Virus genome (UHGV): UHGV-0371278
DNA: 64,000 nucleotides
Source: a virus
Strand: one strand, 5' to 3'
The stretch's first letter is position 1; each line of letters starts with the position of its first letter. The position numbers were made by a program, and so were the translations under genes. The notes below the pieces were generated by a model. The model made no database searches. It was given only the letters and a program-made list of their open reading frames with translations, and was not told where the DNA came from. This document shows positions 1,376 to 52,864 of the stretch, one piece after another.

Positions 1376-2377
1376 ATGATTCCTGATCAGAAAGTCATCA
1401 TCGTAGGTGCTGGACTCGCCGGACTGATCGCCGCGCATCGCTTTCCTCAAGCCCAAATCATCGACGCGGCGACGCGTGAGAACAAGGAACGTCACAACGC
1501 GCTCTTGCGATTCCGCTCACCAGTCATCGGCCAGCTCACCGGCATCCCATTCCGCGAAGTCACCGTACACAAGGCCATCTACATTGACGGCGAGTTCGTT
1601 TCTCAGCCGCGCATCGACTACTGCAACATGTACTCCAGGAAAGTAACGGGCGGCCTGTCGGATCGGTCCATCTGGAACATGGCGACCGAAAAGCGCTGGA
1701 TCGCGCCGGCCGACTACTATGAGCAGCTGGTCGCTAAGCTGGCGAATCGCATCAGCTGGGGAAGGCCTTTCGACGCCTCTTTCTTCCAGTTCCTTCGCCG
1801 GCAAGACGATCACGTCAATATCATCAGCACGGCACCATTCCGCGCAAATCTGGCTGCGGCAGGGCTGGACCTGGGGATCGACCCGTCATTCGGCGAAGGA
1901 ACCTCCATCGTCGTGAGTCGATACAAGCTTTCCATTCCTTGTGATGTCTTCCAGACGGTGTATTTCCCTGGTCCCGAAGTGGGAACGTTTCGAGCGTCCA
2001 TCACCGGCGACACCCTTATCGTCGAATCCGTTACTAAGGGCGTCGTGGAGACTGCAGATGGTGAAATCGAAACCATCGAATGGGACAGCAACTGGGACCT
2101 GGATGAAGTTTGCTCGGCCTTCGGCATCAGGAAGAAGAATCTCATTCCGGACGGCGAGCCGACCGTCCAGACCAAGGGTAAAATCATTCCGCTCGGTCGC
2201 GACGAGCGCGAATCCATGATCTGGAATCTCACCCATGAAGCCGGCATCTTCTCGCTCGGTCGGTTCGCGACCTGGCGAAACGTCCTTCTGGACGATCTGG
2301 TTTCGGACATGGACGTCATCGAGCGCCTGATGACTTCTTCGTCTTATCAGAAGGCCAAGAAGATGTTCGTGAAATAA
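1376..2377 (+). CDS. FAD/NAD(P)-binding Rossmann-fold oxidoreductase
   Basis: N-terminal VIIVGAGLAGLIAA dinucleotide-binding motif; RBS GGAAC before ATG 1376 (ORF track start 1352 is TTG). Confidence 0.6.
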   Translation: MIPDQKVIIVGAGLAGLIAAHRFPQAQIIDAATRENKERHNALLRFRSPVIGQLTGIPFREVTVHKAIYIDGEFVSQPRIDYCNMYSRKVTGGLSDRSIWNMATEKRWIAPADYYEQLVAKLANRISWGRPFDASFFQFLRRQDDHVNIISTAPFRANLAAAGLDLGIDPSFGEGTSIVVSRYKLSIPCDVFQTVYFPGPEVGTFRASITGDTLIVESVTKGVVETADGEIETIEWDSNWDLDEVCSAFGIRKKNLIPDGEPTVQTKGKIIPLGRDERESMIWNLTHEAGIFSLGRFATWRNVLLDDLVSDMDVIERLMTSSSYQKAKKMFVK

Positions 2378-2388
2378 TTTACACAAAG

Positions 2389-2420
2389 TGCTTTACTTCT
2401 GAGCCAGGTGAGAGTAGTAT
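2389..2420 (+). promoter_or_regulatory. sigma70-like early promoter (TGCTTTACTT -35 region, TAGTAT -10) followed by conserved leader CTCATCGAAACGCGAAAC
   Basis: member of a repeated promoter/leader family seen again at 12169, 44165, 46293, 50098, 50416, 52546, 54447. Confidence 0.45.
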
Positions 2421-2466
2421 TCCCTCATCGAAACGCGAAACCCTTCAACCAAAAGGAATCGACAAA

Positions 2467-9889: not shown

Positions 9890-11451
9890 AAGCCAAAACC
9901 TATCCCGTCAAGGGCATGAAGACCGAGGCTATGCAGCACCAGTTCAATGCCCTGGAGGCTTCCCTTAACAAAAGGAATTTCGCATACCTGATGGAGCAAG
10001 GCACCGGGAAGACATGGACTACTTTGGCAGACTCAGTTAGGCTCTTCCTGCAAGGAAGGGTTGACGCGCTGCTCATCGTCGCCCCCAAGGGCGTACACAC
10101 GAACTGGATTCTGCGCGAGATTCCCACCCACGTTGCTATCAAGACTCTGTGCGTGGATTGGCGCGGCCGACCGACTTCCAAAAAGGCCAGGGCGCGTCTG
10201 GATCGTCTGTATGCCGAGACATTCGCTGATGAAAAAGTTCTTCGGGTCTTTGCCATAAACGTCGATGCCATCAACCACCAGGCTGGCTATGATGAGGTCG
10301 AGCGATTCCTTGATACATTCAAAGTTTGCGCAATTGTGGACGAGTCAACGAGGATCAAAAACCCACAAGCCAAGCGTGCGAAAAAGATCGTAAAGCTGGG
10401 CGAGAAGGCCGTGGCCCGTCGCATCCTTTCCGGAACTCCTCTGACGCGGGCACCGACCGATTTGTTCATGCAGTTCCAATTCTTGCGGAATGGAATTCTG
10501 GGGACTAAATCCTATCGGGCGTTTGTGGCCGAATTTTCCGTTCTGGTTCCCAGCGACGATCCGCGAATGGTCGCCATCATGCGCAAATTGGATGGGAAGA
10601 GTACAGTCCCCCCTCAGCTCGTCGAGAAAGACGATCTTGGACGACCAGTATTCCGAAATCTCGACAAACTGCGGTCCCTGATCGAGCCACACAGCTTCCG
10701 GGTCACGAAGAAAGAGGCATTACCATTCCTGCCAGAAAAGGTTTACAAGCGCATATATTTCGAAATGTCGCCTGAGCAAAGGAAGGTTTATCAGCGAGTG
10801 GAAGAAGACTACCACTTCGTTCTCAAGAACGAAGACTTCATGCTGGACGTATCTTTCGATGCTGCGGCAGCGCGTTCGAAGCTCAAGCAAGTTGCATCCG
10901 GCTATATCAACGTCTATGGCGAGCCGGTGATCCTGCCGCCCGAAGACAACCCGCGATTCGCCGTGTTTACTGATCTTCTGGAGGGTCTGCTGGAGGAAGA
11001 CCAGGAGCGCTCCATCATCATCTGGGCCATGCGCATTCAGGAAATCGACCAGATCAAGGCGTATCTGGAGGCCAAAGGAATTTCGTTTGGAGCCTATTAT
11101 GGCGAGACCAAAGAGGCCGAGCGGGAAAAATTGATCGACGATTTCCAGGCCAAGCGCGTCCAGGTGTTCCTGGGCAACCCGGCCGCTGCTGGGATCGGAA
11201 TCACGCTCACTGCCGCAGACGTGGCAATTTACTACACGACCGACGAAGACAACGAGTTGCGGATGCAGTCCGAAGACAGAAACCATCGCATCGGGACCAT
11301 CAACTCTGTCCTGTACTTCGACCTCATCTGTCTGGACTCCATCGACGAGAAAATCCAGGTTAGCTTGGAGTGGAAGCGCAATCTTGCGAGTTATGTCGTC
11401 GATGGAGTGTTCGAGGCTGACGTTAGCACTCGCGACGAATTTAATATGTAA
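9886..11451 (+). CDS. SNF2-family helicase
   Basis: motif I EQGTGKTW, motif II IVDESTRIKN, C-terminal helicase domain with GNPAAAGIGITL. Confidence 0.85.
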   Translation: MKAKTYPVKGMKTEAMQHQFNALEASLNKRNFAYLMEQGTGKTWTTLADSVRLFLQGRVDALLIVAPKGVHTNWILREIPTHVAIKTLCVDWRGRPTSKKARARLDRLYAETFADEKVLRVFAINVDAINHQAGYDEVERFLDTFKVCAIVDESTRIKNPQAKRAKKIVKLGEKAVARRILSGTPLTRAPTDLFMQFQFLRNGILGTKSYRAFVAEFSVLVPSDDPRMVAIMRKLDGKSTVPPQLVEKDDLGRPVFRNLDKLRSLIEPHSFRVTKKEALPFLPEKVYKRIYFEMSPEQRKVYQRVEEDYHFVLKNEDFMLDVSFDAAAARSKLKQVASGYINVYGEPVILPPEDNPRFAVFTDLLEGLLEEDQERSIIIWAMRIQEIDQIKAYLEAKGISFGAYYGETKEAEREKLIDDFQAKRVQVFLGNPAAAGIGITLTAADVAIYYTTDEDNELRMQSEDRNHRIGTINSVLYFDLICLDSIDEKIQVSLEWKRNLASYVVDGVFEADVSTRDEFNM

Positions 11452-11538: not shown

Positions 11539-12159
11539 ATGAGCGAGCAAGAATTGGAAGTTCCGGAGTATCTGAAGGACAATGCGCCGGGCGAAATTGA
11601 CTATTTCGGCGTCATGGATGAAATGGCAGTCGAAGCTACCGACATTGGCCATCGACTGCTGAACTTGGTGGACAAGGCGTCTCAGCTGGACGGCGAAATC
11701 CTCGATTTACAAAAGGCGCTGGCCGAAAAAGAGGAAGAGCTGAAGACCCTCAAGCGCAACACCATTCCTGAGCTTCTGGAGGAACTCGGCCAGAAGACCA
11801 CGACTCTGGCTGATGGCCGCACGGTAAAAGTCGAGCCGAAAGCCATCATTTCCGTCAAGGAAGAGAACAAGTCGAAGTTCTGGAAGTGGCTGGAAGACAC
11901 AGACAACGACGGCATCATCAAGACCAAAGTTCTGGCAGAATTCGGTCGCGGAGAAATGGAAGATGCGAAGAAGGCGGCCGAAGCGATCATCGAAGCCGGC
12001 TATGACGCCACCATCAACCGCGATGTTCACTACCAGACCCTCCAGGCGTTCGGTCGCGAGTACCTGGAGAAGGGCGAAGAGTTGCCAGATTTCATCGGCG
12101 TGCACGAATACAAAGAGGCCAAAATCACGAAACCGAAGGTGAAAAAGAGCAAATCTTAA
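11539..12159 (+). CDS. hypothetical coiled-coil protein (architecture loosely Gam-like)
   Basis: GGAGG 5 nt upstream of ATG 11539; N-terminal coiled coil EILDLQKALAEKEEELKTLK. Confidence 0.5.
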   Translation: MSEQELEVPEYLKDNAPGEIDYFGVMDEMAVEATDIGHRLLNLVDKASQLDGEILDLQKALAEKEEELKTLKRNTIPELLEELGQKTTTLADGRTVKVEPKAIISVKEENKSKFWKWLEDTDNDGIIKTKVLAEFGRGEMEDAKKAAEAIIEAGYDATINRDVHYQTLQAFGREYLEKGEELPDFIGVHEYKEAKITKPKVKKSKS

Positions 12160-12168
12160 TATGTAATT

Positions 12169-12202
12169 TGCTTTACTTAGTTGCAACTTCCGTTATTATA
12201 AA
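12169..12202 (+). promoter_or_regulatory. early promoter of the TGCTTTACTT family
   Basis: TTTGCTTTACTT then TATTAT/TTATAA 16-17 nt downstream. Confidence 0.35.
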
Positions 12203-12247
12203 CCCACAGTTAGCGATAACTGAAATTCGACAAACAAGGAGCCTAAC

Positions 12248-13147
12248 ATGGCTGGTAAGAAAACCGAAACTTCCGAAGCAACCGAAGAAACCAAGGCCGT
12301 AGCAGTTGCCACCGGTGGCGGCGCCGTCGCGACTACCGAAGTTCCCGACTTCATGGATTTGGGATCGTATGACGGCGCAGGCTTCGAAGGCGCCGATGCC
12401 GAGTCCTATGCCATCCCCTTCATCCAGGTTTTGCAGAAGATGTCTCCCCAGGTCGATGAAGATGACCCGAAGTACATCGAAGGCGCGAAGGCCGGCATGT
12501 TCCTGAACACAGTCACCGGCAAGGTTTACGACGGCAAGACCGGCCTGCTGATCATTCCGGCCGCGTACCGCCGCGAGTTCATCCGCTGGGCCGGTCGCGA
12601 GGCCGAGGGCGGTTTCAAGGGTGCCATCAGCGTCGAAGACTTCAAGGAAATGATGAAAGACCCGACCAAGGTGAAGGAAGTCGAAGGACGCCTGTACGCG
12701 CCGAACGAAGACGGTTCGGTCAGCGACAAGAAGTCTGACTACTTCGCCGACACCCGTGGTCATTACGTCATCGTCATCGATCCTGACACCGGCGATTTCG
12801 GCCAGGCTCTGATCTCCCTGTCGTCTTCGCAGATCAAGGCCTCGAAGAAGCTCATGACCGCGCTGTCCCAGAAAAAGGTTCAGACCCCGCAGGGCCTGCG
12901 CACCCCGCCGACTTTCGCCAACCTGGTCCGTATGACCACCGTAGGCATGTCGAACGACAAGGGCAGCTGGTCCGGCGTCCAGTTCGAGCTGGAAGGCCTG
13001 GTGAAGAACCCGGATCACTTCAAGGCTGCGGCCGACCTGTACAAGTCGTTCGTCGGCGGCGAGGTGAAGGTGGACTACAGCAAGCAGGAACAGCCTCGCA
13101 GTGACGCCGGTGGCGTCGGCGATGCGACCGAAGCCGAAGAGTTCTAA
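12248..13147 (+). CDS. hypothetical protein, possible ssDNA-binding protein (acidic C-terminal tail ending in Phe)
   Basis: Gly-rich linker then ...DATEAEEF C-terminus resembling SSB / T7 gp2.5 tails; RBS AAGGAG. Confidence 0.35.
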   Translation: MAGKKTETSEATEETKAVAVATGGGAVATTEVPDFMDLGSYDGAGFEGADAESYAIPFIQVLQKMSPQVDEDDPKYIEGAKAGMFLNTVTGKVYDGKTGLLIIPAAYRREFIRWAGREAEGGFKGAISVEDFKEMMKDPTKVKEVEGRLYAPNEDGSVSDKKSDYFADTRGHYVIVIDPDTGDFGQALISLSSSQIKASKKLMTALSQKKVQTPQGLRTPPTFANLVRMTTVGMSNDKGSWSGVQFELEGLVKNPDHFKAAADLYKSFVGGEVKVDYSKQEQPRSDAGGVGDATEAEEF

Positions 13148-42059: not shown

Positions 42060-42237
42060 TTTAATTCCATGCGGTTGCTGGTTGTGTGCACTTATTATAG
42101 GGGAAACATCAAACGTTCAAAAGAGATTCAAACATATACATCACATTAACAGTCGCAACTAATCAGTTATGAGAAAATAATTCTTACGGGAACTTTTCGG
42201 CAGATTAGACTCTAATTATCAACCAATGGAGATTAAC

Positions 42238-43759: not shown

Positions 43760-44023
43760 ATGGCTACTAAGGCCGATTTGGAATTTGAAGTTCAGCAGCT
43801 TCGACGAGTCGTCAAATCTCGCGAACGCGAAATTGAAGAGCTGCAGAGCCGACTGGAGCGCCATCGCGATATGATTCGCCGGGTCCGGCTCTATCTTTGG
43901 AGCCGTTTGCTGATCCATCGTCGGACCGCCGAAACCCTGGAAGTCGGCGACAGCATTGCCAAGACCATCGCCGCGAAGCGTCACAGGTCGCGAACGACGT
44001 TCTTGGAATCATCCAGCATATGA
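43760..44023 (+). CDS. hypothetical coiled-coil protein
   Basis: RBS GAGGTAAGT. Confidence 0.45.
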   Translation: MATKADLEFEVQQLRRVVKSREREIEELQSRLERHRDMIRRVRLYLWSRLLIHRRTAETLEVGDSIAKTIAAKRHRSRTTFLESSSI

Positions 44024-44125
44024 ATGACTATTGCGACAGTTATGCTGAGTATGATTACAACGACGGCGCTGAGCATGGGTTCAAGATCGGCAGCGACATT
44101 TATTGATTGCCTGTGACCCGACGAA

Positions 44126-44155
44126 CGGTAGTGCGAAAGTGCTACCGTTTTTCCA
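44126..44155 (+). terminator. terminator hairpin with GAAA tetraloop and G-U pairs followed by GTTTTTCC
   Basis: GGTAGTGC-GAAA-GTGCTACC. Confidence 0.4.
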
Positions 44156-44164
44156 TTTCTGGCG

Positions 44165-44209
44165 TATAGTCAGCTCATCGAAACGAACTTTCCAAACAGG
44201 AGAATCGAT
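44165..44209 (+). promoter_or_regulatory. -10 TATAGT plus conserved leader CTCATCGAAACGAAC
   Basis: same leader motif as 2421, 46326, 50128, 50448. Confidence 0.4.
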
Positions 44210-45139
44210 ATGAACGCAGCAGCCACCTTCAGCGGTTTCGACGATCTGGAATCCGAAATTGGATCCATCGAAATCTCGTCCGAAAAGCCCGCCACTCTGG
44301 AAGATGCGTCCATGGGTGCCAAAGAGAATCCATTCAAAGCGGTCAAGATGTACCGCGAAAAATGCATGAAGTGCGCAGGCACTGGAATATATCGCGGACC
44401 TTCCTCCTATGGGCACCAGTGCTTCGCCTGCGGCGGCGTCGGCTACAAAGAGTACAAAACCAGCCCCGAAGCACGCGCCAAGAGCCGGTCGAAGGCGGCT
44501 GAGAAGCGCCAGCAGAAACGCATGTCGGCCTTTGAGGCGAAACAAGCCAGCATCGCCAAGTTCGAGCAGGATCACCCGGACATCATCGAATGGTGGAGCG
44601 ACAACAATTTCAGTTTCGCCTGCAGCCTTCGCGATTCGCTGTATCAGTGGGGTCGCCTGTCCGACAACCAGATTGCCGCCGCGAAACGCTCCATCGAGAG
44701 TCTGGCTAAGCACCGCGAAGAGCAAAAGGCGAAAGTCGAGGCTCTTCCGACCCTGGACACTTCCGGCATCGAAGAGGCTTTCGATAAGGCCAAAAATTCC
44801 GGCATCAAAAGCCCGAAGCTGCGCCTGGCCGGCGAAGGCGAAGACCCGTTGCTTGTGGTGATCAAAGAAGCGAGCGTAAACAGCCGCAACTACGGAAGCT
44901 TGTACGTCATCGGCGATGTGTACCTGGGCAAGATCACTGGCGGCAAGTTCATCAAAAGCCGCGACTGCACCGACACTGAGAACGAAGAGATTCTGAAGAT
45001 GTTCGAAAGGCCAATGGAATCGGCAGTCGCCTACGGTCGGAAGACTGGTCAATGCTCCTGCTGCGGTCGCGAGTTGACCAACCACGCATCCATCGAAATG
45101 GGAATCGGCCCTATCTGCGCCGGAAAGTTCTTCGGATGA
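44210..45139 (+). CDS. zinc-finger protein (two DnaJ-type CxxCxGxG motifs; C-terminal CSCCGRELT...GIGPICAGKF motif)
   Basis: CMKCAGTG / CFACGGVG; RBS ACAGGAGAA. Confidence 0.55.
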   Translation: MNAAATFSGFDDLESEIGSIEISSEKPATLEDASMGAKENPFKAVKMYREKCMKCAGTGIYRGPSSYGHQCFACGGVGYKEYKTSPEARAKSRSKAAEKRQQKRMSAFEAKQASIAKFEQDHPDIIEWWSDNNFSFACSLRDSLYQWGRLSDNQIAAAKRSIESLAKHREEQKAKVEALPTLDTSGIEEAFDKAKNSGIKSPKLRLAGEGEDPLLVVIKEASVNSRNYGSLYVIGDVYLGKITGGKFIKSRDCTDTENEEILKMFERPMESAVAYGRKTGQCSCCGRELTNHASIEMGIGPICAGKFFG

Positions 45140-45240
45140 TCCATCTTACAATCAAAGTCACGGCCTGGTTCGCCCTTCTATGGGCGACCGGCTTGGCCCT
45201 CATAACCTTTGCCATCCACTTCTGCTACTGAGGATTATCC

Positions 45241-45729
45241 ATGGATACCGTCGCTGATCCGATGAAGGACAAAATCACGCTGCAAGGCCTGGGCTTCATC
45301 CAGGTCCAGCTTCCGGCAGGCCGCCTCCATGTATGGCATCCGGAGCTGCCGCGCCGGATTTGCTTCCATCACTCTTCCATCCACGATCATCGATTCGATT
45401 TCGAGTCCTTGGTTCTGGTTGGGTCTATGGAGAACATAAACTATTACGTTGACCGTTCGGCGCGCCTCTGTGAATTGACTCATGAAGGGTATGAGCACTC
45501 TTCGGCTCGCCAGGCCTGTGGCGGTCGCGGTTGGGAGCCTGTAGGCTCTGTATGCCTGCGCCAGAGGCAAGAATTCATCATCGGCGCCGGACAGCAATAC
45601 TCGATGTCGGCTTATGTCCCTCACAGGACGAATCCGCTCGGTGACGGTCGCGTGGCCACTCTCATTCGAAAGGGCGCCGTTCACAAATGGCCGGCCACTT
45701 CCTATGTGACCCTGGGAGTCGACCACTGA
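45241..45729 (+). CDS. hypothetical protein (His-rich, possible metal-binding)
   Basis: RBS GAGGA; HVWHPE...IHDHRFDF. Confidence 0.5.
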   Translation: MDTVADPMKDKITLQGLGFIQVQLPAGRLHVWHPELPRRICFHHSSIHDHRFDFESLVLVGSMENINYYVDRSARLCELTHEGYEHSSARQACGGRGWEPVGSVCLRQRQEFIIGAGQQYSMSAYVPHRTNPLGDGRVATLIRKGAVHKWPATSYVTLGVDH

Positions 45730-45844
45730 AACCGACTTCGACCGTTATCAGTGGTCGGCTCCGACGCTCTGGGAAGTCGTCACTGATGTCCTCGGCGGCG
45801 CAGAGTTCCAAATCCCATCCATTCCTTGACCGAAGGAACCTAAA

Positions 45845-46282
45845 ATGAAGAAATTCTGTATCGACATCACCAATGGTCTGGCCGGCTTCATCATCTGGGG
45901 CGGCGCCATCGTCCTAGCGGCTTCCGTCTTCATCATCGGTCCGCTGGCGCTCCTGCTGACCGGCGCCTGGGTCGTTTGCACGGCAGTGGTGTTCGCACTC
46001 TGGTTCGCCGTCGCCGGCATCTACGAAGAGTCGCAAAAGCAGACCGAGTATTTGAAATCCATAGCATCTATCCAGGCACGCGAGCGCGGCGCCGGCTTTG
46101 GTCCAGAAGACTCCGGGCCAAGCACCAGCGCTCCGGCGAATCCGGTAGAGCCAAAACTCAGCCACCCCAAGCTGAAGCCTGGCGCACAATTGGCCTCTGC
46201 AGTTGTGTTCTTCGCAGTTATCGTCGTTGTCCTGGCCGCAGGCGACTGGATCTGGAACTATTTCCAGGCTCTTACGAAATAA
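45845..46282 (+). CDS. integral membrane protein
   Basis: 3-4 predicted TM helices; RBS GAAGGAAC. Confidence 0.5.
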   Translation: MKKFCIDITNGLAGFIIWGGAIVLAASVFIIGPLALLLTGAWVVCTAVVFALWFAVAGIYEESQKQTEYLKSIASIQARERGAGFGPEDSGPSTSAPANPVEPKLSHPKLKPGAQLASAVVFFAVIVVVLAAGDWIWNYFQALTK

Positions 46283-46292
46283 TGGAAGAAAA

Positions 46293-46345
46293 TGCTTTAC
46301 TCCACTCTGGATGAAGGCAGAATAGCTCCATCGAAACGCGAAACC
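46293..46345 (+). promoter_or_regulatory. early promoter (TGCTTTACT, CAGAAT) plus conserved leader CTCCATCGAAACGCGAAACC
   Basis: repeat family. Confidence 0.45.
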
Positions 46346-46366
46346 TTCAAACAAAAGGAACCGACC

Positions 46367-47146
46367 ATGACCGACCAGAACGAATTCACTCCTGAAGCCA
46401 TCGAGAAGGCGAAAGATCGCATTCGCAAGCTGACCGCAATGGCGGCCGACTCGTCCAGTCCGCACGAAGCGGCCATCGCGGCCGAGCGGGTGAAGAAGTT
46501 AAAGGACAAATATGATCTTCACGACTTCGAAGCGACCGGCGAGATTCGCGAAGAATTCGACGAGCAAATTGCTACCCGTTACTATTCCGCAATCCCGAAC
46601 TGGATGAAGTTCTTCTCGGTGGCCGTGGCGACGTACAATGATTGCATCATGGATTTCGTCGGCGGCATCAACAATCACCGAGCATCGGCTAAGGCGTCCA
46701 GGAGCGCTCGCGACGGCAGCACCACCAAGCGCTGGGGTCATGCCGTTCGATTTAAAGGCTACAAATCTGACGTTGAGCTGGCGGTAAACATGTTCAACTC
46801 CCTGGTCGATGCAGTAGACCGTCTGTGCCGGGAATATCAGAAGGCTCAAGGTTTCGAGCGGTTCAACGTCAAGGTCGCCGCGCAATTTAAGCTCGCCGCG
46901 ACCCAGGAAATCAGCTATCGCCTCCAATCCATCACCCGGAAACGTATGGAGCTGGTTTCTTCGGCCGGAACGTCTCTGGTGGTGGTTAAGGAAGCTGCGG
47001 TCCACGAACATTTCGGCGATCCGGGTTACAAGAAGTCGAATGTTACCAAACTCATGCGTCTGGACGACAGCGACGGTCGGCGCGCCTACACTGCCGGGAC
47101 CAATGCCGGTCGCAACATGGAAATCGTTCGGTCGGTGGAGGATTAA
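46367..47146 (+). CDS. hypothetical protein (DUF2786-like N-terminal helix)
   Basis: KAKDRIRKLTAMAADSSSPHEAAIAAERVKKL; RBS AAAAGGAA. Confidence 0.5.
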   Translation: MTDQNEFTPEAIEKAKDRIRKLTAMAADSSSPHEAAIAAERVKKLKDKYDLHDFEATGEIREEFDEQIATRYYSAIPNWMKFFSVAVATYNDCIMDFVGGINNHRASAKASRSARDGSTTKRWGHAVRFKGYKSDVELAVNMFNSLVDAVDRLCREYQKAQGFERFNVKVAAQFKLAATQEISYRLQSITRKRMELVSSAGTSLVVVKEAAVHEHFGDPGYKKSNVTKLMRLDDSDGRRAYTAGTNAGRNMEIVRSVED

Positions 47147-47148
47147 CC

Positions 47149-47583
47149 ATGGGCTTTCCTAGCGACAAAGTGATGCTGCGAATCGTCCAGTCCATCCTCG
47201 CGATCCTCATCGGGATCGCTTGGGCCTGCGCCGACTATGGAGTCGTGGCCGCCGAACTTCCTCCATCGCTGCAGGCCCATCCCGCAAGGCCAGGGTACAG
47301 CGAAGTCTCGGCCCGCGACCCTAGGCTGGTCGAGGCCGAAAAAGCGCGGGAAGAGGCCTTAGAATATGTCCTGTCGCTGCGCCCGGAAGTTATCGAGGCG
47401 AAAGCCCGCTTCGCGGCCGAGGCGGCGCAGCAAGGAATGTCCACTAAGAAGTATGCTGAGGTGCATAGCCAAGCCAGAATGCTCACAGGAACGCTATTGG
47501 CGTTTGCAGTATTTATGTTGGCTGGAACGCTATTGACGTTTGCAGTCTTCTTGTTCATCTTCATCAAAACGACCAGGCTTTGA
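47149..47583 (+). CDS. membrane protein with internal 33-nt tandem duplication
   Basis: GTLLAFAVFML / GTLLTFAVFLF. Confidence 0.45.
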   Translation: MGFPSDKVMLRIVQSILAILIGIAWACADYGVVAAELPPSLQAHPARPGYSEVSARDPRLVEAEKAREEALEYVLSLRPEVIEAKARFAAEAAQQGMSTKKYAEVHSQARMLTGTLLAFAVFMLAGTLLTFAVFLFIFIKTTRL

Positions 47584-47628
47584 ATAGGCCTGGGCGGACC
47601 ACAAACCCCCAGCCAAAAGAGAATCACC

Positions 47629-47979
47629 ATGAAGAAAGAACCGATTCACCTCAGCTCTATGGCCTCGGCCCGCGCCATCGATGCGGAATTCGCATTCCGG
47701 ATGGACGAGTTCATGGCGCGCGTAGCGAAAGAGCACGAAGCGCTCGCCGCTCGTCTGAATGCCGAGAATGAAGCGCTCTGGGGCGAAATCCGCGCTGTCG
47801 CCGGCCTGAGTGCCACCGACTTCCCGAACATCGCCATGGCGCACGACACTTCCGATGGGAAGCTCTATGTCATGGACGCCGACGAGTTGGAGCGCGTCCG
47901 CCAGGCCTGCCCGTGCCCGGACTGCGCATCCGCTCGCGCAGAAAGAATGCCGTCGCAAGCCAGTGGAGGGATTCACTAA
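47629..47979 (+). CDS. hypothetical protein
   Basis: ORF with RBS. Confidence 0.45.
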   Translation: MKKEPIHLSSMASARAIDAEFAFRMDEFMARVAKEHEALAARLNAENEALWGEIRAVAGLSATDFPNIAMAHDTSDGKLYVMDADELERVRQACPCPDCASARAERMPSQASGGIH

Positions 47980-48197
47980 TGGCTCTGAAGCTATCTTCCG
48001 TTCACGTTCGAATCGACGGACCTGACGGAAAGGTTCTGTCGGAAGGCCGCGCAGAGTTCTCCGGAACTGCATTTTGGATCGCTGCGCAACGCGAAATGCA
48101 GCTCAGGCACCTCGTCGGAACTTCATTCGAAGGTGCCCTGACCTATTTGGCCGATAACGGCTATAACGTAACATTCAGCAAAGGTGAAAAGCGATGA
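47979..48197 (+). CDS. hypothetical protein
   Basis: TAATG coupling. Confidence 0.4.
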   Translation: MALKLSSVHVRIDGPDGKVLSEGRAEFSGTAFWIAAQREMQLRHLVGTSFEGALTYLADNGYNVTFSKGEKR

Positions 48198-48577
48198 TCG
48201 AAAGACACATTGTGGATGCGGAAGTCGTCGAGCGGATTCGTTCTCTTCGCATGCGACTCAACGTCCTGGATGAAACCCTGCAACGGGCCGTCGACATGGC
48301 GATGCTCAGCCACCAGAAATCTCTGCAAGACCTTCGAACCTATGAAGCTCAGCTCTGGGATGCTCTCAATGCACGTTACGGCCTGTCCGTCGAGAAGACA
48401 TATGACCTGCGTTTCGAGGGCGAAGAAGCCGTGCTGGTAGAGGTTCCGCCCGGCGACGGCCAAGGCGATGATTTCATCGTCGAGTCGGAAGCCGAAGCGC
48501 TCGCGGCCGGCCAGGAAGCCCTGGGAGTCGGCGAGGCCGTTGCGTCGACACTCAGCACCAGGAACCACACCGAGTAA
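48194..48577 (+). CDS. hypothetical acidic protein
   Basis: ATGA coupling. Confidence 0.45.
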   Translation: MIERHIVDAEVVERIRSLRMRLNVLDETLQRAVDMAMLSHQKSLQDLRTYEAQLWDALNARYGLSVEKTYDLRFEGEEAVLVEVPPGDGQGDDFIVESEAEALAAGQEALGVGEAVASTLSTRNHTE

Positions 48578-48583
48578 GACCCG

Positions 48584-48607
48584 AAGCCCGGAGCGATCCG
48601 GGCTTTT
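48584..48607. terminator. bidirectional terminator
   Basis: AAGCCCGGA-GCGA-TCCGGGCTT then TTCT; between convergent genes. Confidence 0.6.
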
Positions 48608-48613
48608 CTATGT

Positions 48614-50059
48614 TTAGAAGTCGAAGAAGCCTTTGGGCTTCCGGATCGGCAGAATGGCCGACATAATCACCGAGTCAGCGATGTTCGGCGACTTGATCTT
48701 GCGTTTCTCGCGCATATCCTTCTTGGACTCGACTTTGAACCGGCCGTTCATGTCCAGGTCTTTGCGCGGCGACGAAAGTTCGATACACAGCTGATTTAGT
48801 TTGTCCGGGTGAATCGTTTCAGAGTTGATCGAGATCAATTCGTCAAATGGATAAACCTTTCCATGCTCAACCGCTTCATAAGTCTTCCGGAATCTGGTCG
48901 CGACTTCTTCCCACTTCTGCGCCTTGATGTTGCTGAAGTGGTCTTTGTTCTTGATCGTCGTGTGCGGCAGCTTCATGTAAACGTCATCAGGCTTATCGAC
49001 AGCGCCACCCGCATTGAATGGATCATAGATCAGTTTGAAGTCGGGGCTGGCATCGTTCAACTCGGCAAACTTCGAACCGACGTGGGCGCCGACGCCGATG
49101 GAGTCATAAGTGACCGAGGCGCCTTTCATCTTCGCAAGATTGTAAACGCGACTGGACGACTTAAGCAGCTCATCTTCCAGACCATCCCATTCGTCCACTT
49201 CCATGATGACGTTGCCGTGCATGAGAGTAGTGGCGTTCGCATCCTCGCCGTCGTCCGCAACGTCGAAGCCGATGCGCTTCGATCCGGCCGGCTCCCAGCC
49301 GAGTTTCTTGTGGGCGTCGATGGCCGCGAAAATGAACTTGAGGTTGATGACGGATTTGTCGCCTCCAGTCTTCGGAATCCCGCCATAAATGTGCTCGGCC
49401 TGCTCCCGGTCGCGTTCATAGGCTTCGTGAATCACTTTGAGCATCGTCTCGCTTAGGAACGGATTTTCGTTCCAGTTGATCATCTTGACGCAGGAGTCTT
49501 TCGGTGGTTTGACCACGAAGTTCTGATACACGAAATCGGTGACTTCGTTAGGGTTGAAGATGATCCAGATTTCAGAGTTTTCTTTCCGGATGGTCGGCTC
49601 GATAACTTCCCACTGCTCCTGTGTCAGGTAGTGAGCTTCCTCAAGCCAGAGAATGTCGATGCCTTCGGTGGACTTGATTTCCGACAGGTTACGGGCGATC
49701 CCATAAAACAGGAACTCTGAGCCGGTAATCTTGTGCTTGATGGAGTTCTTGGTGAAGATGAATTCGCCATTATACTCTGAGTTTTCGATCTTGTCCTTGA
49801 CCAACGTGTAGACCGATTCGCTGATGCGGTTCTGAAACTGGCGAGCACAGAGGAACTTGAGTCTATAGTTGGCCGCGAGGTAAACGGCGATACCGCCTGC
49901 GTCGTGTGACTTCGAAGACGCCCGGCCGCCATAAATGACTTTGTAACGGGCGCGAGTTCGCCAGACCGCTCGCAGTGCAGGGTTGAGTTTGTACATTCTA
50001 ATCAATCCGGTGTTAGCAATAGGTCGAGTATATCGACGCCGCAACAGACGGTCGAGCAC
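48614..50059 (-). CDS. terminase large subunit (PBSX/Terminase_3-like)
   Basis: KLNPALRAVW...ARYKVIYGGRASSKS Walker A; DILWLEEAHY; GTG start at 50059 (alternative ATG 49996). Confidence 0.85.
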   Translation of the reverse strand: MLDRLLRRRYTRPIANTGLIRMYKLNPALRAVWRTRARYKVIYGGRASSKSHDAGGIAVYLAANYRLKFLCARQFQNRISESVYTLVKDKIENSEYNGEFIFTKNSIKHKITGSEFLFYGIARNLSEIKSTEGIDILWLEEAHYLTQEQWEVIEPTIRKENSEIWIIFNPNEVTDFVYQNFVVKPPKDSCVKMINWNENPFLSETMLKVIHEAYERDREQAEHIYGGIPKTGGDKSVINLKFIFAAIDAHKKLGWEPAGSKRIGFDVADDGEDANATTLMHGNVIMEVDEWDGLEDELLKSSSRVYNLAKMKGASVTYDSIGVGAHVGSKFAELNDASPDFKLIYDPFNAGGAVDKPDDVYMKLPHTTIKNKDHFSNIKAQKWEEVATRFRKTYEAVEHGKVYPFDELISINSETIHPDKLNQLCIELSSPRKDLDMNGRFKVESKKDMREKRKIKSPNIADSVIMSAILPIRKPKGFFDF

Positions 50060-50097
50060 AACCGTTCGTCGGTGAAAATAATTTTCTCACTCAGACA

Positions 50098-50127
50098 CTT
50101 TACTTCCATTCTGACCAACGGCATAAT
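50098..50127 (+). promoter_or_regulatory. early promoter TTTACT-17-CATAAT
   Basis: repeat family; leader CTCTTCATCGAAACGAAC follows. Confidence 0.45.
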
Positions 50128-50166
50128 CTCTTCATCGAAACGAACAAACACCTGGAGGGTAAGACG

Positions 50167-50325
50167 ATGAACGCAAACCAGCAAATAGAAGCATTCTTCC
50201 TGGCTCGCAAAGCGGAAGGGTGCGGCAATAGCAGAGCCTTGGATGCGACCGTCGAGCACTTCGCACAATACAACCCTATGTACGTGCGGACTCACATTCG
50301 CCACTGCGCGCTTTGGGATACCTAA
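50167..50325 (+). CDS. hypothetical small protein (52 aa, below ORF-track cutoff)
   Basis: GGAGGG RBS 7 nt upstream; promoter and leader upstream. Confidence 0.4.
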   Translation: MNANQQIEAFFLARKAEGCGNSRALDATVEHFAQYNPMYVRTHIRHCALWDT

Positions 50326-50415
50326 TCAACATTCGGATGCGGACACGCCTTCCATGGGAGGAAATATTCCTGACGAACAGACCGCTCGTCCACTTTGAGA
50401 AATATTTCACAATTC

Positions 50416-50447
50416 TGCTTTACTTCCATTCTGAATAGCGTCATAAT
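50416..50447 (+). promoter_or_regulatory. early promoter TGCTTTACTT-17-CATAAT
   Basis: repeat family; leader CTCTTCATCGAAACGCGAAAC. Confidence 0.45.
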
Positions 50448-50492
50448 CTCTTCATCGAAACGCGAAACACTCCAAAACAGAGGAACGCAGAA

Positions 50493-50744
50493 ATGACCAA
50501 ATCCAAATGGAACATCGGCAGAAACGACACCATCGCAGTCGAGGCCGTAAACAGCCGCGAAGACTTCCGCTGGAATGGCAAGATTCGCGTCATCCACTAC
50601 AGCGCCGGTCAAATCGTCAACATCATCGAGTTCTATCACCACGACCTGGACTGGGCGATCAAGAATTTCGGCATCAAGCTCAAGGCCATCTCCAAGGGCC
50701 TGGAAATCCTCCACACCTGCTACTTCGGGAAGTATGTCAAGTGA
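50493..50744 (+). CDS. hypothetical protein
   Basis: RBS CAGAGGAAC. Confidence 0.5.
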   Translation: MTKSKWNIGRNDTIAVEAVNSREDFRWNGKIRVIHYSAGQIVNIIEFYHHDLDWAIKNFGIKLKAISKGLEILHTCYFGKYVK

Positions 50745-50941
50745 TCGTCCAATTCGATTCCCAAGAAGAGAAAATCATCAGCCTGAGAACGCTGTCCAAG
50801 TATCGTCGCGCCGGTGGCAAGTTCGCGCCGGTGGACGGAACTCAGACCGGTCCCTGGGGTCCAGTAGACAACGCGCTCTGGGCGAAGTTCGAAGCCGAAG
50901 TCAGGGCAGAATACATCCGCAAACAGGAGCGTAAAGCATGA
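50741..50941 (+). CDS. hypothetical protein (GTG start)
   Basis: GTGA overlap with upstream stop. Confidence 0.35.
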   Translation: MIVQFDSQEEKIISLRTLSKYRRAGGKFAPVDGTQTGPWGPVDNALWAKFEAEVRAEYIRKQERKA

Positions 50942-51153
50942 TCAAGCAAGACCTGTACAAGCAGATCGCCTTCGCGGCGATTGGCTCCGGCATCAAGATG
51001 TTCGTCAAGCTGTACTGCAACGACACCATCCTGGAAGTCATCGGCGTCGAGGAAGCCCACATTGATGGGACGACTCGGCTTCGTTACACTGGCTACGCAG
51101 ATGGAATTGGTTTTAACTTCTTCGCCGACGAAATTGACGTGGTGATGGTATGA
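50938..51153 (+). CDS. hypothetical protein
   Basis: ATGA coupling. Confidence 0.45.
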   Translation: MIKQDLYKQIAFAAIGSGIKMFVKLYCNDTILEVIGVEEAHIDGTTRLRYTGYADGIGFNFFADEIDVVMV

Positions 51154-51362
51154 GTTGCCATTCGATGTTCGACTTTGAAGTCGATTTCAATAGCGCCACC
51201 AATAGCGCCACCAATAGCGCCACCATGGAGATCGATCCCGGCTCATTCTATGTAGGCTTCGGGTTTGGCGCGACTGCTCTGTCAGTCCTGATCTATGTAG
51301 ATGGAGTATGGGTGAGCGAACGGACGGCATGGATTCCAGATCCAAAGGAAATATCGCCATGA
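51150..51362 (+). CDS. hypothetical protein with NSAT x3 tandem repeat
   Basis: ATGA coupling; AATAGCGCCACC x3. Confidence 0.4.
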   Translation: MSCHSMFDFEVDFNSATNSATNSATMEIDPGSFYVGFGFGATALSVLIYVDGVWVSERTAWIPDPKEISP

Positions 51363-51571
51363 GCAAGCGCAAAAACGATCAAGGCGGCTGGGCGCAACCC
51401 GGCGCTGCTCGCAAAGTCCACTTCTTCACGGCGGACGGCCGCAGTCTGTGCAAGCGCTGGCTGTACTTCGGCAAGATTTACAACGAGCTGCCTGATCTGG
51501 AAATCACCTGCGCGATATGCGAGAAGAAGCGCCAGAGTCCTTTCGAGAAATACTGCGACACCATTCTCTAA
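51359..51571 (+). CDS. hypothetical Cys-containing small protein
   Basis: ATGA coupling. Confidence 0.4.
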   Translation: MSKRKNDQGGWAQPGAARKVHFFTADGRSLCKRWLYFGKIYNELPDLEITCAICEKKRQSPFEKYCDTIL

Positions 51572-51602
51572 CTTTCAAATCTTCCAAAACCGAGGAACAG
51601 TT

Positions 51603-52247: not shown

Positions 52248-52574
52248 ATGACCATGGTAGGCCCGGCTGGCAAGCGCTACTGGCTTCGGTATGAAACCAG
52301 ATACTGGGAGTGTCTTGACGGACAAACCCTGCGGCTGGTCTTCGTCATCAACGGTCGCCGGTACGAGGTCAATCGACGAGTGAATGTCGACATCCTGTCC
52401 AGTCGGCGCAGGTTTGAATCTTTCGGCCGAGTCCTGGCAAGGATGGAAATAAGCTTGTGGTTCGCAGTGTGCGAGCAAGAAGGTCCATGGCGCGGTAGCG
52501 TAGCCATAAGCGATACCGCACTTTGGTTCCACCTGACGGGAGAATTGGTACACAAATGCTTTACTCGGCGGTGA
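52248..52574 (+). CDS. hypothetical protein
   Basis: TAAATG coupling. Confidence 0.4.
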   Translation: MTMVGPAGKRYWLRYETRYWECLDGQTLRLVFVINGRRYEVNRRVNVDILSSRRRFESFGRVLARMEISLWFAVCEQEGPWRGSVAISDTALWFHLTGELVHKCFTRR

Positions 52575-52578
52575 GAAT
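52546..52578 (+). promoter_or_regulatory. early promoter TGCTTTACTC-18-CATAAT (lies within 3' end of upstream ORF)
   Basis: repeat family. Confidence 0.4.
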
Positions 52579-52639
52579 CATGGCATAATCTCTTCACCGG
52601 CTGAGAAGTCGGACCCGAAGTCCAAAAAGGAATCTCGAA

Positions 52640-52864
52640 ATGTACAGAACTCCCTCGTCCAAATTCACGTTCATCTGCAACGGACTCGCCCAGAGTACTG
52701 AAGTGACGGTCCTGCTCCGGACGCAGAAACCGGAAGACGTATGGGTGGTGGACGAAGCTCCATCCGCTGATCTGATTCGTATTCACGAACGCAGCAACAA
52801 ACGCCGTCGCCGTACCATCAAAATCATCGACGTGGACTCCGTGTCCATCCTTCACAAACGTTAA
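52640..52864 (+). CDS. hypothetical protein
   Basis: RBS AAAAGGAA. Confidence 0.45.
   Translation: MYRTPSSKFTFICNGLAQSTEVTVLLRTQKPEDVWVVDEAPSADLIRIHERSNKRRRRTIKIIDVDSVSILHKR

What the first reader, a model, noticed from the sequence alone, without database searches (positions are those of the whole stretch)
2389..2466. Repeated early promoter plus conserved 5'-UTR element in front of the + strand gene clusters
At least eight copies of a near-identical module were found: TGCTTTACT(T/C), 16-18 nt, (C/T)ATAAT-like box, then leader (C)TCTTCATCGAAACG(C)GAAAC, then AAAAGGAA/CAGAGGA RBS. Starts are at 2389, 12169, 44165, 46293, 50098, 50416, 52546 and 54447. Conservation of the transcribed CATCGAAACGCGAAAC block suggests a function beyond the promoter, such as a processing site, regulator-binding site or translational control.
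Basis: seen in the sequence. Interest (0 to 1): 0.6.

Follow-up and report, generated by a model that had tools for sequence, protein, structure and literature searches.

The report
Phage promoters sharing one transcript start
The repeated module is a set of host-type (sigma-70) promoters of a PB1-like Pseudomonas phage, and the conserved "leader" is the first 9-15 transcribed bases (ATCGAAACG...), a start sequence that also follows the promoters of many unrelated phages and so looks like an undescribed, widely selected part of the promoter.

Summary
The window is a Pbunavirus (PB1-like) genome, reversed and permuted relative to phage 14-1. All eight sites are sigma-70-type promoters in front of + strand genes, but only five (A 2427, C 44177, D 46330, E 50134, F 50454) carry the leader core CATCGAAACG. 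Only three (A, D, F) carry the full 16-mer. Sites B, G and H lack it.

Published ONT-cappable-seq start sites of 14-1 fall exactly on the A of ATCGAAACG (or ATTGAAACG) at all five orthologous promoters. The block is therefore the initial transcribed sequence (ITS, +1 to +9/+15), not a processing site. It is 100% identical among the five copies, whereas the -10 is 67% identical, the -35 53% and the spacer 41%.

The block is not specific to this lineage. It sits in the same register (6 nt after the -10) in relatives with 59-79% terminase (TerL) identity, at the annotated pL of phi80, and in phages Rtp, ECD7 and Pantoea phage Kyle. It also has that register in 27 of 57 independent virome occurrences of ATCGAAACGAAACA. 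Controls show nothing comparable. T7 A1 starts ATCGAGAGGG.

The leaders are unstructured, match no Rfam family and show no special complementarity to 16S rRNA. My best reading is an ITS read by host RNA polymerase that favours productive initiation. The modules also bound exchangeable early-gene cassettes. The mechanism is inferred, not shown.

The parts
2371..2378 (+). Module A: AT-rich upstream stretch GAAATAAT that contains the stop codon of the upstream gene (gp66 homologue)
   Evidence: the same octamer is at 46276 in module D
2392..2397 (+). Module A -35 hexamer TTTACT (within TGCTTTACTT, 2389-2398)
2415..2420 (+). Module A -10 hexamer TAGTAT, 17-nt spacer
2427..2441 (+). Module A initial transcribed sequence ATCGAAACGCGAAAC. 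+1 = 2427, inferred from the orthologous mapped start 14-1 P028
2451..2469 (+). Module A Shine-Dalgarno AAAAGGAA and ATG (2467) of the gp65 homologue; the 5' UTR is 40 nt and unstructured
12169..12250 (+). Module B: promoter TTTACT-16-TATTAT, +1 near 12206 (ACAGTTAGCG), no leader block; upstream of the gp52 homologue. Orthologue of 14-1 P024
44123..44212 (+). Module C: terminator hairpin (44123-44150) overlapping a weak -35, -10 TATAGT (44165-44170), ITS ATCGAAACGAAC (44177-44188), ATG 44210 of the gp12 homologue. Orthologue of 14-1 P009
46293..46369 (+). Module D: TGCTTTACTC, -10 CAGAAT (46318-46323), ITS ATCGAAACGCGAAAC (46330-46344), ATG 46367 of the gp08 homologue. Orthologue of 14-1 P006
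50098..50169 (+). Module E: CTTTACTT, CATAAT (50122-50127), ITS ATCGAAACGAAC (50134-50145), ATG 50167 of a 52-aa ORF. The promoter is orthologous to 14-1 P001; the downstream cassette differs
50416..50495 (+). Module F: TGCTTTACTT, CATAAT (50442-50447), ITS ATCGAAACGCGAAAC (50454-50468), ATG 50493 of the gp88 homologue. ITS and gene are orthologous to 14-1 P049; the promoter part is of a different type
52557..52642 (+). Module G: TGCTTTACTC-18-CATAAT, expected +1 at 52596, leader starts with a 5' hairpin (ACCGGCUGAGAAGUCGG), no leader block; upstream of the gp82 homologue. Orthologue of 14-1 P048
54457..54550 (+). Module H: TAGACA-17-CATAAT, +1 near 54493, leader has a hairpin from +5, no leader block; upstream of the gp77 homologue. 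Orthologue of 14-1 P043
42613..42673 (+). Additional promoter of the same style (TTCACT-18-TAAAAT, +1 near 42649, ATCTACC) upstream of the gp16 homologue. Orthologue of 14-1 P010
42180..42240 (+). Additional promoter (-10 TAGACT 42206-42211, +1 near 42218, ATCAACC) upstream of the gp17 homologue. Orthologue of 14-1 P012

Best explanation
The modules are promoters used by the host sigma-70 RNA polymerase for the early and DNA-metabolism gene clusters of a PB1-like phage. The conserved 'leader' begins at the transcription start itself. ATCGAAACG is +1 to +9, often extended to about +15 as CGAAAC (here) or AAAC(A) (in the wider virome).

I propose that this block is an initial transcribed sequence read mainly by RNA polymerase during initial transcription. 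Its features are: an A start after a pyrimidine, U at +2, no further T, purines at +5 to +7 where initiating complexes tend to pause, and a length equal to the first RNA-DNA hybrid. This would give a high yield of productive transcripts (few abortive cycles, fast promoter escape). As a by-product it gives a short, U-poor, unstructured 5' UTR that leaves the ribosome-binding site open.

Within Pbunaviruses the promoter-ITS-RBS modules also mark the borders of exchangeable early-gene cassettes.

Shown: promoter identity, position of +1, the degree and breadth of conservation, fixed register, absence of RNA structure. Inferred: the effect on initiation and escape.
For: - Identity of the window: Pbunavirus.
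- Start sites: 14-1 Table S3 start sites, checked on the 14-1 sequence, fall on the A of ATCGAAACG at P001, P009, P028 and P049, and on the A of ATTGAAACG at P006.
- Conservation inside the module: ITS +1..+9 is 100% identical among the five window copies. The -10 is 67%, the -35 53%, the spacer 41% and the discriminator 50%. This is selection, not simple recent duplication.
- Relatives: phages with 59-79% TerL identity carry ATCGAAACG(A/G)AA 6-7 nt after their own -10 boxes. Examples are four copies in L028, and copies in L023, L029 and L053.
- Virome probes without any promoter in the pattern: for ATCGAAACGAAACA, 82 of 120 sites and 27 of 57 independent clusters have a -10-like hexamer exactly 6 nt upstream, and no other distance is enriched. 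For a second probe, ATCGAAACGAACAA, 16 of 86 clusters do; chance is about 1.6% per cluster.
- Negative controls: GAACGAAACGAAGC shows no promoter association (4 of 97 clusters). Bacterial-genome hits of the 17-mer give 1 of 117.
- Named cases: phi80 pL, whose annotated -35 and -10 are followed by ATCGAAACGAAAC; phage Rtp; ECD7, a Krischvirus; Pantoea phage Kyle; and an uncultured 155-kb phage with at least 6 tandem modules.
- T7: A1 starts ATCGAGAGGG and A3 starts ATGAAACGAC at their annotated starts.
- Literature: the first ~10 transcribed bases have the largest effect on escape, over about 3 orders of magnitude. T's and (T/C)G near +5/+6 slow escape, GA/GG favour it, and purine content correlates with productive yield (PMC5961368).
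- RNA-level features are absent: leaders are unstructured (z from -0.7 to +1.5), there is no Rfam family, and 16S complementarity is at shuffle level.
Against: - No experiment here or in the literature I could read shows that this ITS changes promoter output.
- 14-1 P001 cloned as -50..+1 only, without its ITS, is already a potent promoter in E. coli and P. aeruginosa. The block is therefore not required for activity.
- Three of the eight modules work without it (B, G, H), and orthologues tolerate variants such as ATTGAAACG, AGCGAAACG and ATCGAACG.
- Physical rules for escape (purine-rich, T-poor) would be met by many sequences. They do not obviously explain conservation of one exact 9-mer.
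- Whole short 5' UTRs, such as ATCGAAACGAACAACGGAGCAAGACGAGATG, recur in front of different genes. That is equally compatible with selection at the mRNA or translation level.
- The ITS carries CG at +3/+4 and +8/+9, a dinucleotide that can be mildly pause-prone.
Confidence: 0.5

Rival explanations
1. The block acts as RNA: a 5'-terminal mRNA element. A single-stranded pppAUCGAAACG... end would protect the transcript (poor substrate for 5'-end-dependent decay) or recruit a conserved host factor or the 30S subunit, giving high translation from very short leaders.
For: - The block is always in the transcribed strand at the very 5' end.
- 5' UTRs are short (21-40 nt), with the SD usually 2-18 nt after the block.
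- A complete conserved 5' UTR recurs behind unrelated promoters and in front of different ORFs.
- Modules G and H, which lack the block, have a 5' hairpin instead, a classical 5'-end stabiliser.
Against: - The register to the -10 is rigid. A closely related 14-mer without the ATC start (GAACGAAACGAAGC) is not enriched in leaders at any distance. A free-standing RNA motif should tolerate displacement.
- There is no 16S complementarity beyond shuffles, no structure and no Rfam family.
- In phi80 the same start heads a long nutL leader far from any start codon.
- I know of no RNA-binding protein with this specificity (my own knowledge).
Confidence: 0.22
2. The block is an operator on DNA. A phage-encoded or host DNA-binding protein binds +1..+15 (direct repeat CGAAAC-G-CGAAAC) and shuts these promoters off or modulates them when the phage switches to its CTGGG-type promoters.
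For: - Three of five copies here and four of five in 14-1 carry the tandem CGAAAC G CGAAAC.
- The position over +1 is typical for repressors.
- Pbunaviruses do switch promoter classes, and gp12 binds the RNA polymerase alpha subunit (PMC10914365).
Against: - The same sequence in the same register occurs in unrelated phages with different regulators: lambdoid, T1-like, RB49-like, and L007 which carries the identical 17-mer.
- In phi80-type pL the immunity operators vary while the ITS stays constant.
- The invariant part is +1..+9, not the repeat.
- No candidate binding protein was identified.
Confidence: 0.1
3. The block has no function of its own. The similarity is a by-product of duplication, gene conversion and recombination between repeated promoter cassettes (PeSL-like modular shuffling), and the block is simply the downstream edge of the recombining unit.
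For: - Modules E and F share spacer sequence.
- The number of modules and cassettes between TerL and gp84 varies from 2 to 4 among six genomes.
- Homology breakpoints between genomes fall at +9..+15 of the E ITS and at -2 of the F ITS.
- The architecture (stop codon in an AT-rich stretch, sigma-70 promoter, SD, ATG) matches the description of PeSLs (PMC2839356).
Against: - A, C, D and F have unrelated spacers, different -10 hexamers and different flanks, yet identical +1..+9. A conversion tract would not skip the spacer.
- The motif recurs at promoters of unrelated phages with no flanking similarity.
- This reading explains the spread of modules, not the choice of sequence. It is best seen as complementary.
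Confidence: 0.1
4. The block is an RNA processing site or a structured cis-regulatory RNA (attenuator or riboswitch-like).
For: None beyond its conservation in the transcribed region.
Against: - 5' ends at the block come from the cap-enriched (primary transcript) library and lie 7 nt after a -10.
- Leaders fold no better than shuffles.
- No Rfam family matches.
Confidence: 0.03

Closest known systems
Mapped sigma-70-like promoters of Pseudomonas phage 14-1 (ONT-cappable-seq; Putzeys et al. 2024, PMC10914365; bioRxiv 10.1101/2023.10.13.562163, Table S3)
   Same: Direct orthologues: A=P028, B=P024, C=P009, D=P006, E=P001, F=P049, G=P048, H=P043. The start site is at the A of ATCGAAACG. P001 was validated in vivo.
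   Different: That study analysed only -50..+1 with MEME and does not mention the conserved transcribed block. The window differs in cassette content (no gp01, gp02, gp89, gp90 or gp13; an extra 52-aa ORF).
Initial transcribed sequences of strong coliphage promoters (T7 A1 ATCGAGAGGG..., T7 A3 ATGAAACGAC...; T5 N25 ITS as the classic functional example)
   Same: CA start, AU as the first two nucleotides and a T-poor, purine-rich first 10-20 nt. The first five nt are identical to T7 A1, and T7 A3 matches ATCGAAACGA apart from the missing C at +3. ITS is known to change promoter output by more than 10-fold (PMC5961368).
   Different: Here one exact 9-14-mer recurs at many unrelated promoters. 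Published work states that no obvious conserved ITS motif had been identified. No functional data exist for this sequence.
phi80 / HK225-type lambdoid pL promoter
   Same: The annotated -35 and -10 are followed, after 6 nt, by ATCGAAACGAAACA. The sequence stays constant across immunity types whose operators differ.
   Different: It heads a long leader with nutL boxA about 58 nt downstream and the N gene about 400 nt away, not a short 5' UTR with an SD.
PeSLs (promoter-early stem-loop cassettes) of RB49-like T4-type phages (Arbiol et al. 2010, PMC2839356)
   Same: Repeated sigma-70 early promoters, with an AT-rich upstream part holding the previous stop codon, and an SD and ATG at the 3' end. 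They flank variable small ORFs, and indel breakpoints between close relatives fall at the repeats. An RB49-like phage (ECD7) carries the same ITS behind one such promoter.
   Different: Most window modules lack the defining stem-loop; it is present only at C, weakly at G, and in the LBL3-type gp88 promoter. The passages of the PeSL paper I read (section 14 with the legend of its Fig. 2, and the passages containing 'consensus') do not mention a conserved transcribed motif.

Membership tests
Sigma-70 (housekeeping) bacterial promoter | -10 hexamer close to TATAAT with A at position 2 and T at position 6 | tested here: met
   TAGTAT, TATTAT, TATAGT, CAGAAT and CATAAT (x4)
Sigma-70 (housekeeping) bacterial promoter | -35 hexamer close to TTGACA, 16-18 bp upstream of the -10 | tested here: met
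   TTTACT (4 of 6) at A, B, D, E, F and G; TAGACA (5 of 6) at H; weak at C (CTACCG)
Sigma-70 (housekeeping) bacterial promoter | Primary transcript 5' end 6-8 nt downstream of the -10 | tested here: met
   Published 14-1 start sites checked against the 14-1 sequence: 7 nt after the -10 at P001, P006, P009, P024, P028, P043 and P049. Shown for the orthologues, not for this isolate.
Sigma-70 (housekeeping) bacterial promoter | Activity with host RNA polymerase alone | not testable with these tools
   Literature only: 14-1 P001 drives msfGFP in uninfected E. coli and P. aeruginosa
Initial transcribed sequence (ITS) as promoter element | Lies within about +1..+20 and keeps a fixed register to the -10 and start site | tested here: met
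   +1..+9/+15. The distance to the -10 is 6 nt in all 5 window copies, in 82 of 120 virome sites and in 27 of 57 clusters
Initial transcribed sequence (ITS) as promoter element | Sequence features associated with fast escape (purine-rich, few T, no (T/C)G at +5..+7) | tested here: met
   ATCGAAACG has a single T at +2 and AAA at +5..+7. Compared with the rules in PMC5961368.
Initial transcribed sequence (ITS) as promoter element | Changing it alters the abortive/productive ratio or promoter output | not testable with these tools
   No data. P001 without its ITS is still strong.
PeSL-type mobile regulatory cassette | Sigma-70 early promoter with AT-rich upstream region containing the upstream stop codon, and SD plus start codon at the 3' end | tested here: met
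   GAAATAAT with TAA at modules A and D; SD and ATG 33-55 nt after +1
PeSL-type mobile regulatory cassette | Stable stem-loop within or next to the promoter | tested here: not met
   DNA folds of A, B, D, E, F and H are at shuffle level. A stem-loop is present only at C (terminator, z -1.8), at G (z -2.0) and in the LBL3-type gp88 promoter (z -6.0).
PeSL-type mobile regulatory cassette | Flanks variable ORFs, with indel breakpoints between close relatives at the repeats | tested here: met
   2-4 modules with different cassettes between TerL and gp84 in six genomes. Breakpoints fall at window 50142-50148 and at 50452.
Structured cis-regulatory RNA / Rfam family | Conserved secondary structure or a covariance-model match | tested here: not met
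   z-scores from -0.7 to +1.5 for block-containing leaders; 0 Rfam matches in the window
Repressor operator | Repeated half-sites bound by a cognate regulator encoded in the same lineage | tested here: inconclusive
   The direct repeat CGAAAC-G-CGAAAC is present in 3 of 5 copies, but the invariant part is +1..+9 and the motif occurs in unrelated phages. Binding could not be tested.
RNA processing site | 5' ends generated by cleavage of a longer transcript | tested here: not met
   The ends are called from the library enriched for primary transcripts and lie at canonical distance from a -10

The most novel reading that the evidence does not exclude
ATCGAAACG(A/C)(A/G)AAAC anchored at +1 is a consensus 'start element' for phage promoters that use the host sigma-70 polymerase, selected independently in many phage lineages. 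It carries specific information read by a conserved host component. That component is either RNA polymerase during the first 9 nt of synthesis, in a sequence-specific way that composition rules do not predict, or a still unknown factor that recognises the 5' end of the nascent RNA. In either case phage early transcripts would gain a kinetic advantage over host transcripts.
Probability: 0.3. Interest if true: 0.8.

Novelty: new variant of a known kind. Interest (0 to 1): 0.6.

Why it matters
Bacterial promoters are usually defined by what lies upstream of +1, and large-scale work found no obvious conserved ITS motif. Here a single 9-14-nt transcribed sequence is more conserved than the -10 and -35 within one phage. 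It also recurs in exact register at promoters of unrelated phages of Pseudomonas, Escherichia and Pantoea. Examples are a PB1-like phage, lambdoid pL, and T1-like and RB49-like phages.

If the polymerase reads it, this gives a natural, evolution-tested answer to what an optimal initial transcribed sequence looks like. That answer can be tested directly with existing in vitro escape assays and ITS libraries, and it is useful for designing strong, portable expression cassettes.

It also improves phage annotation, because the motif marks transcription starts to the nucleotide. And it explains where early-gene cassettes are exchanged in Pbunaviruses, which are used in phage therapy.

Tried and rejected
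- **Translational enhancer pairing with rRNA.** The longest complementary run to E. coli 16S is 7, at the mode of shuffles. Rejected.
- **Structured leader or known RNA family.** Folds are at shuffle level, and there is no Rfam hit in the window or in six lambdoid-type loci. Rejected.
- **A free-standing GAAACGAA RNA motif.** This was suggested by displaced copies in L022, L030 and L044 and by a hairpin-loop display in L044. The virome probe GAACGAAACGAAGC gave 97 clusters that lie almost entirely inside genes, with no promoter association. Rejected, and kept as a negative control.
- **Mimicry of a host sequence.** The bacterial-genome scan for the 17-mer gave taxonomically scattered, chance-like hits with no promoter context (1 of 117), including two Pseudomonas species.
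- **Literature string searches.** ATCGAAACGAAAC and ATCGAAACGCGAAAC were found in 0 papers; the 10-mer hits are unrelated primers.
- **rrn/lambda boxA, IHF, Fur, Hfq ARN, Crc CA-motif and CsrA GGA resemblances.** I checked these by eye from remembered consensus sequences. None fits. They were not pursued.
- **L153.** It has no relative among GenBank phages, so its host stays unknown.
- **PMC copy of the 14-1 paper.** It holds no supplements. The bioRxiv copy does.
Full report
**What the window is.** A 12-kb piece (44000-56000) matches 303 phage records, almost all Pseudomonas PB1-like phages (Pbunavirus), at 90-95% identity. Alignment to phage 14-1 (NC_011703) shows that the window is the reverse complement, circularly permuted, at about 92% identity. 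The + strand clusters of the window therefore correspond to the minus-strand clusters of 14-1: small early genes gp01-17 and gp77-90, and DNA-metabolism genes gp48-69.

**Check of the observation.** I read all eight sites.
- CATCGAAACG occurs exactly five times, all on the + strand, at 2426, 44176, 46329, 50133 and 50453. Shuffles give 0.29 on average, and none of 100 reaches five.
- The 16-mer CATCGAAACGCGAAAC occurs three times.
- TGCTTTACTY occurs five times exactly on the + strand.
- Every block starts 5 nt after a -10-like hexamer, so its A lies 6 nt after the hexamer.

The sites at 12169, 52546/52557 and 54447/54457 are promoters of the same style (TTTACT or TAGACA, 16-18 nt, TATTAT or CATAAT), but their transcribed parts are unrelated to the block. 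The site at 44165 has the -10 and the block but only a weak -35, buried in a terminator hairpin. Two more promoters of the family, upstream of the gp16 and gp17 homologues, were missed.

**Downstream genes** (14-1 homologues):

| Module | Gene downstream |
|---|---|
| A | gp65 |
| B | gp52 |
| C | gp12 |
| D | gp08 |
| E | a 52-aa ORF that replaces gp02/gp01 |
| F | gp88 |
| G | gp82 |
| H | gp77 |

**Where transcription starts.** Putzeys et al. mapped 50 primary 5' ends in 14-1 by ONT-cappable-seq, and 26 of them have sigma-70-like promoters (PMC10914365). Their motif search used only -50..+1, and a term search of the main text found no occurrence of 'leader' and no 5'-UTR passage about these promoters. 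The PMC copy holds no supplements, but the bioRxiv copy holds Table S3.

I placed each listed start on the 14-1 sequence. The start is the A of ATCGAAACG at P001 (707, orthologue of E), P009 (6637, C), P028 (49234, A) and P049 (65240, F). At P006 (4479, D) it is the A of ATTGAAACGCGAAAC. B corresponds to P024 and H to P043. G corresponds to P048, whose mapped end lies 10 nt downstream of the expected +1, inside a 5' hairpin.

The block is the initial transcribed sequence (ITS) of primary transcripts, which excludes a processing site. P001 was cloned as -50..+1 only and was still called potent in E. coli and P. aeruginosa. The block is therefore not needed for promoter activity as such.

**Is the block selected or merely copied?** Among the five block-containing modules of the window, pairwise identity is as follows:

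| Segment | Identity |
|---|---|
| +1..+9 | 100% |
| -10 hexamer | 67% |
| -35 hexamer | 53% |
| Discriminator | 50% |
| +10..+15 | 45% |
| Spacer | 41% (34% without the E/F pair) |
| Upstream region | 31% |

The transcribed 9-mer is the best conserved part of the module, flanked by unrelated sequence. A recent duplication or a conversion tract would not give this pattern. Across Pbunavirus genomes the block is kept, with occasional variants (ATTGAAACG, AGCGAAACG, ATCGAACG), even where the promoter in front of it has been replaced by another type. An example is the gp88 promoter, which is CATAAT-type here and TATAGT-type in 14-1 and the LBL3-like genome.

**Breadth.**
- An exact scan of IMG/VR for the 17-mer found Pbunaviruses plus L007. 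L007 is a 47.7% GC phage contig with no similarity to the window (gp32-like and SAM-lyase-like genes). There the 17-mer follows TTGACA-17-TACAAT in the same register.
- Loci fetched through the terminase, and so independently of the motif, show ATCGAAACG(A/G)AA 6-7 nt after -10 boxes in relatives with only 59-79% TerL identity. L028 has four copies. L023, L029/31, L053 and even L055 (48% TerL identity) have it. L040-42 have ATCGAGA(C/G)G.
In 82 of them a -10-like hexamer ends exactly 6 nt upstream, and every other distance from 0 to 15 has at most 7.
- After clustering on flanking sequence, 27 of 57 independent clusters keep this register, against about 1.6% per cluster expected by chance.
- A second probe, ATCGAAACGAACAA, gave 16 of 86 clusters.

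Controls:
- The related 14-mer GAACGAAACGAAGC gave 97 clusters, nearly all inside genes, with 4 at that distance.
- 117 bacterial-genome hits of the 17-mer gave 1.

The largest cluster is the pL promoter of phi80/HK225-type lambdoid phages. In the annotated phi80 record the -35 and -10 signals of pL are followed, after 6 nt, by ATCGAAACGAAACATCGACAG, with nutL boxA 58 nt downstream. The operators differ between immunity types, but the start sequence does not. Other named carriers are phage Rtp (T1-like), ECD7 (Krischvirus, RB49-like) and Pantoea phage Kyle. An uncultured 155-kb phage has at least six such modules in 9 kb. At their annotated starts, T7 A1 begins ATCGAGAGGG and T7 A3 begins ATGAAACGAC. 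Full-text searches for the 13- and 15-mers returned no paper.

**What it is not.**
- Leaders with the block fold no better than shuffles (minimum free energy -2.3 to -6.3 kcal/mol, z from -0.7 to +1.5).
- The window has no Rfam match.
- Complementarity to 16S rRNA is at shuffle level.
- The distance from the block to the start codon ranges from about 20 nt to several hundred (phi80). A purely translational role is therefore unlikely, though it is not excluded for the short leaders.
- A Pbunavirus-specific regulator site is hard to reconcile with the occurrence in unrelated phages.

**How it most likely works.** The invariant part is nine nucleotides, the length of the first RNA-DNA hybrid.

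Published large-scale work shows the following (PMC5961368):
- The first ~10 transcribed bases have the largest effect on escape, over about three orders of magnitude.
- T's and (T/C)G around +5/+6 slow escape, GA and GG favour it, and purine content correlates with productive yield.
- The authors argue that the promoter definition should include the ITS, and they note that no obvious conserved ITS motif had been seen.

ATCGAAACG has one T (at +2), AAA at +5..+7 and a pyrimidine at -1. I therefore commit to an ITS that favours productive initiation, with the unstructured U-poor leader as a by-product. Confidence is about 0.5. The step from conservation to effect on escape is an inference. The exactness of the conserved sequence, and the recurrence of whole 5' UTRs in front of different genes, keep an RNA-level function alive (about 0.2).

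**Second role: cassette borders.** Between the terminase gene and gp84, six Pbunavirus genomes carry two to four promoter-ITS modules with different small ORFs between them. Homology between the window and other genomes ends at +9..+15 of the E block (window 50142-50148) in four comparisons and resumes at -2 of the F block (50452) in three.

The module architecture is a stop codon inside an AT-rich stretch, then a sigma-70 promoter, then SD and ATG. This is what Arbiol et al. described for PeSLs of RB49-like phages, which mediate shuffling of ORFans (PMC2839356). The defining stem-loop is missing from most window modules. It is present at C, weakly at G, and clearly in the LBL3-type gp88 promoter (z = -6.0). 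These modules therefore work like PeSLs, but I do not file them as members.

**Novelty and verdict.** The promoters are known from 14-1. Recognising the conserved block as a +1-anchored element, its rank as the most conserved part of the module, and its virome-wide recurrence are, as far as the searchable literature shows, new. I rate it a new variant of a known kind (ITS as a promoter element, and phage regulatory cassettes), with interest 0.6.

Noticed in passing
window 50143-50451 and 44102-44111: Relative to 14-1 the window lacks gp02, gp01, gp90 and gp89, and has a 52-aa ORF (ATG 50167) between modules E and F instead. The gp13 methyltransferase of 14-1 is also absent, at the junction 44102/44111.
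   Followed up: partly
window 50142|50143 (L016 end / L006 start): The 64,427-bp IMG/VR Pbunavirus record (UViG_642918907) begins and ends exactly after the ATCGAAACG-type block of module E. Either the deposited linear ends or the assembly break coincide with this promoter.
   Followed up: no
window 11441-11451 and 12156-12166: The 11-mer TTAATATGTAA occurs twice, each time directly upstream of the -35 of a mapped promoter (the gp53 and gp52 homologues; 14-1 P025 and P024). It may be a shared UP element or factor site.
   Followed up: no
window 52596-52613 and 54497-54515: The two promoters without the block (G, H) give leaders that start with a 5' hairpin. The G stem changes T to C on one side among genomes (G-U to G-C), and the mapped 5' end of 14-1 P048 lies inside it.
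   Followed up: partly
L006 (rc 308 region); 14-1 65240 region: The TATAGT-type promoter of gp88 in other Pbunaviruses contains an inverted repeat that spans the -10 and +1..+3. In the LBL3-like genome this is a 9-bp repeat (GATGAGGTG...CACCTCATC; DNA fold z = -6.0); 14-1 has a shorter stem over the -10 (z = -2.6). It is a PeSL-like stem-loop.
   Followed up: partly
L217, L290 and about 50 other loci; phi80 JX871397 33134-33200: phi80/HK225-type lambdoid pL leaders share about 60 nt (ATCGAAACGAAACATCGACAGCTGAGCGAAGTTAGCCAGCGGCG...) upstream of nutL, while the operators differ between phages. No Rfam family matches.
   Followed up: partly
L141, L578, L607, L631, L661, L674: A complete 31-nt 5' UTR, ATCGAAACGAACAACGGAGCAAGACGAGATG, recurs behind unrelated promoters and in front of different ORFs. 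Module E of the window and L649 share a related ...CCTGGAGGG(T/C)AAGACGATG ending.
   Followed up: no
L153 3486-11700: An uncultured 155-kb phage with no GenBank relative carries at least six tandem TTGACA-16-TATAAT promoters followed by ATCGAAACGAA... in front of small ORFs. This is the same design as in the window.
   Followed up: partly
window 50472, 51584, 54528 (+) and 62787 (-): The ribosome-binding context CCAAAAC(A/C)GAGGA recurs on both strands, also before genes without a promoter. It is a general translation-initiation signature of the phage, not part of the promoter module.
   Followed up: partly
L007 10250-10900 (- strand): An unrelated 47.7% GC phage contig (gp32-like SSB, SAM-lyase-like gene) has the identical 17-mer TCATCGAAACGCGAAAC behind a consensus TTGACA-17-TACAAT promoter, upstream of a small (~90-aa) ORF.
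   Followed up: partly
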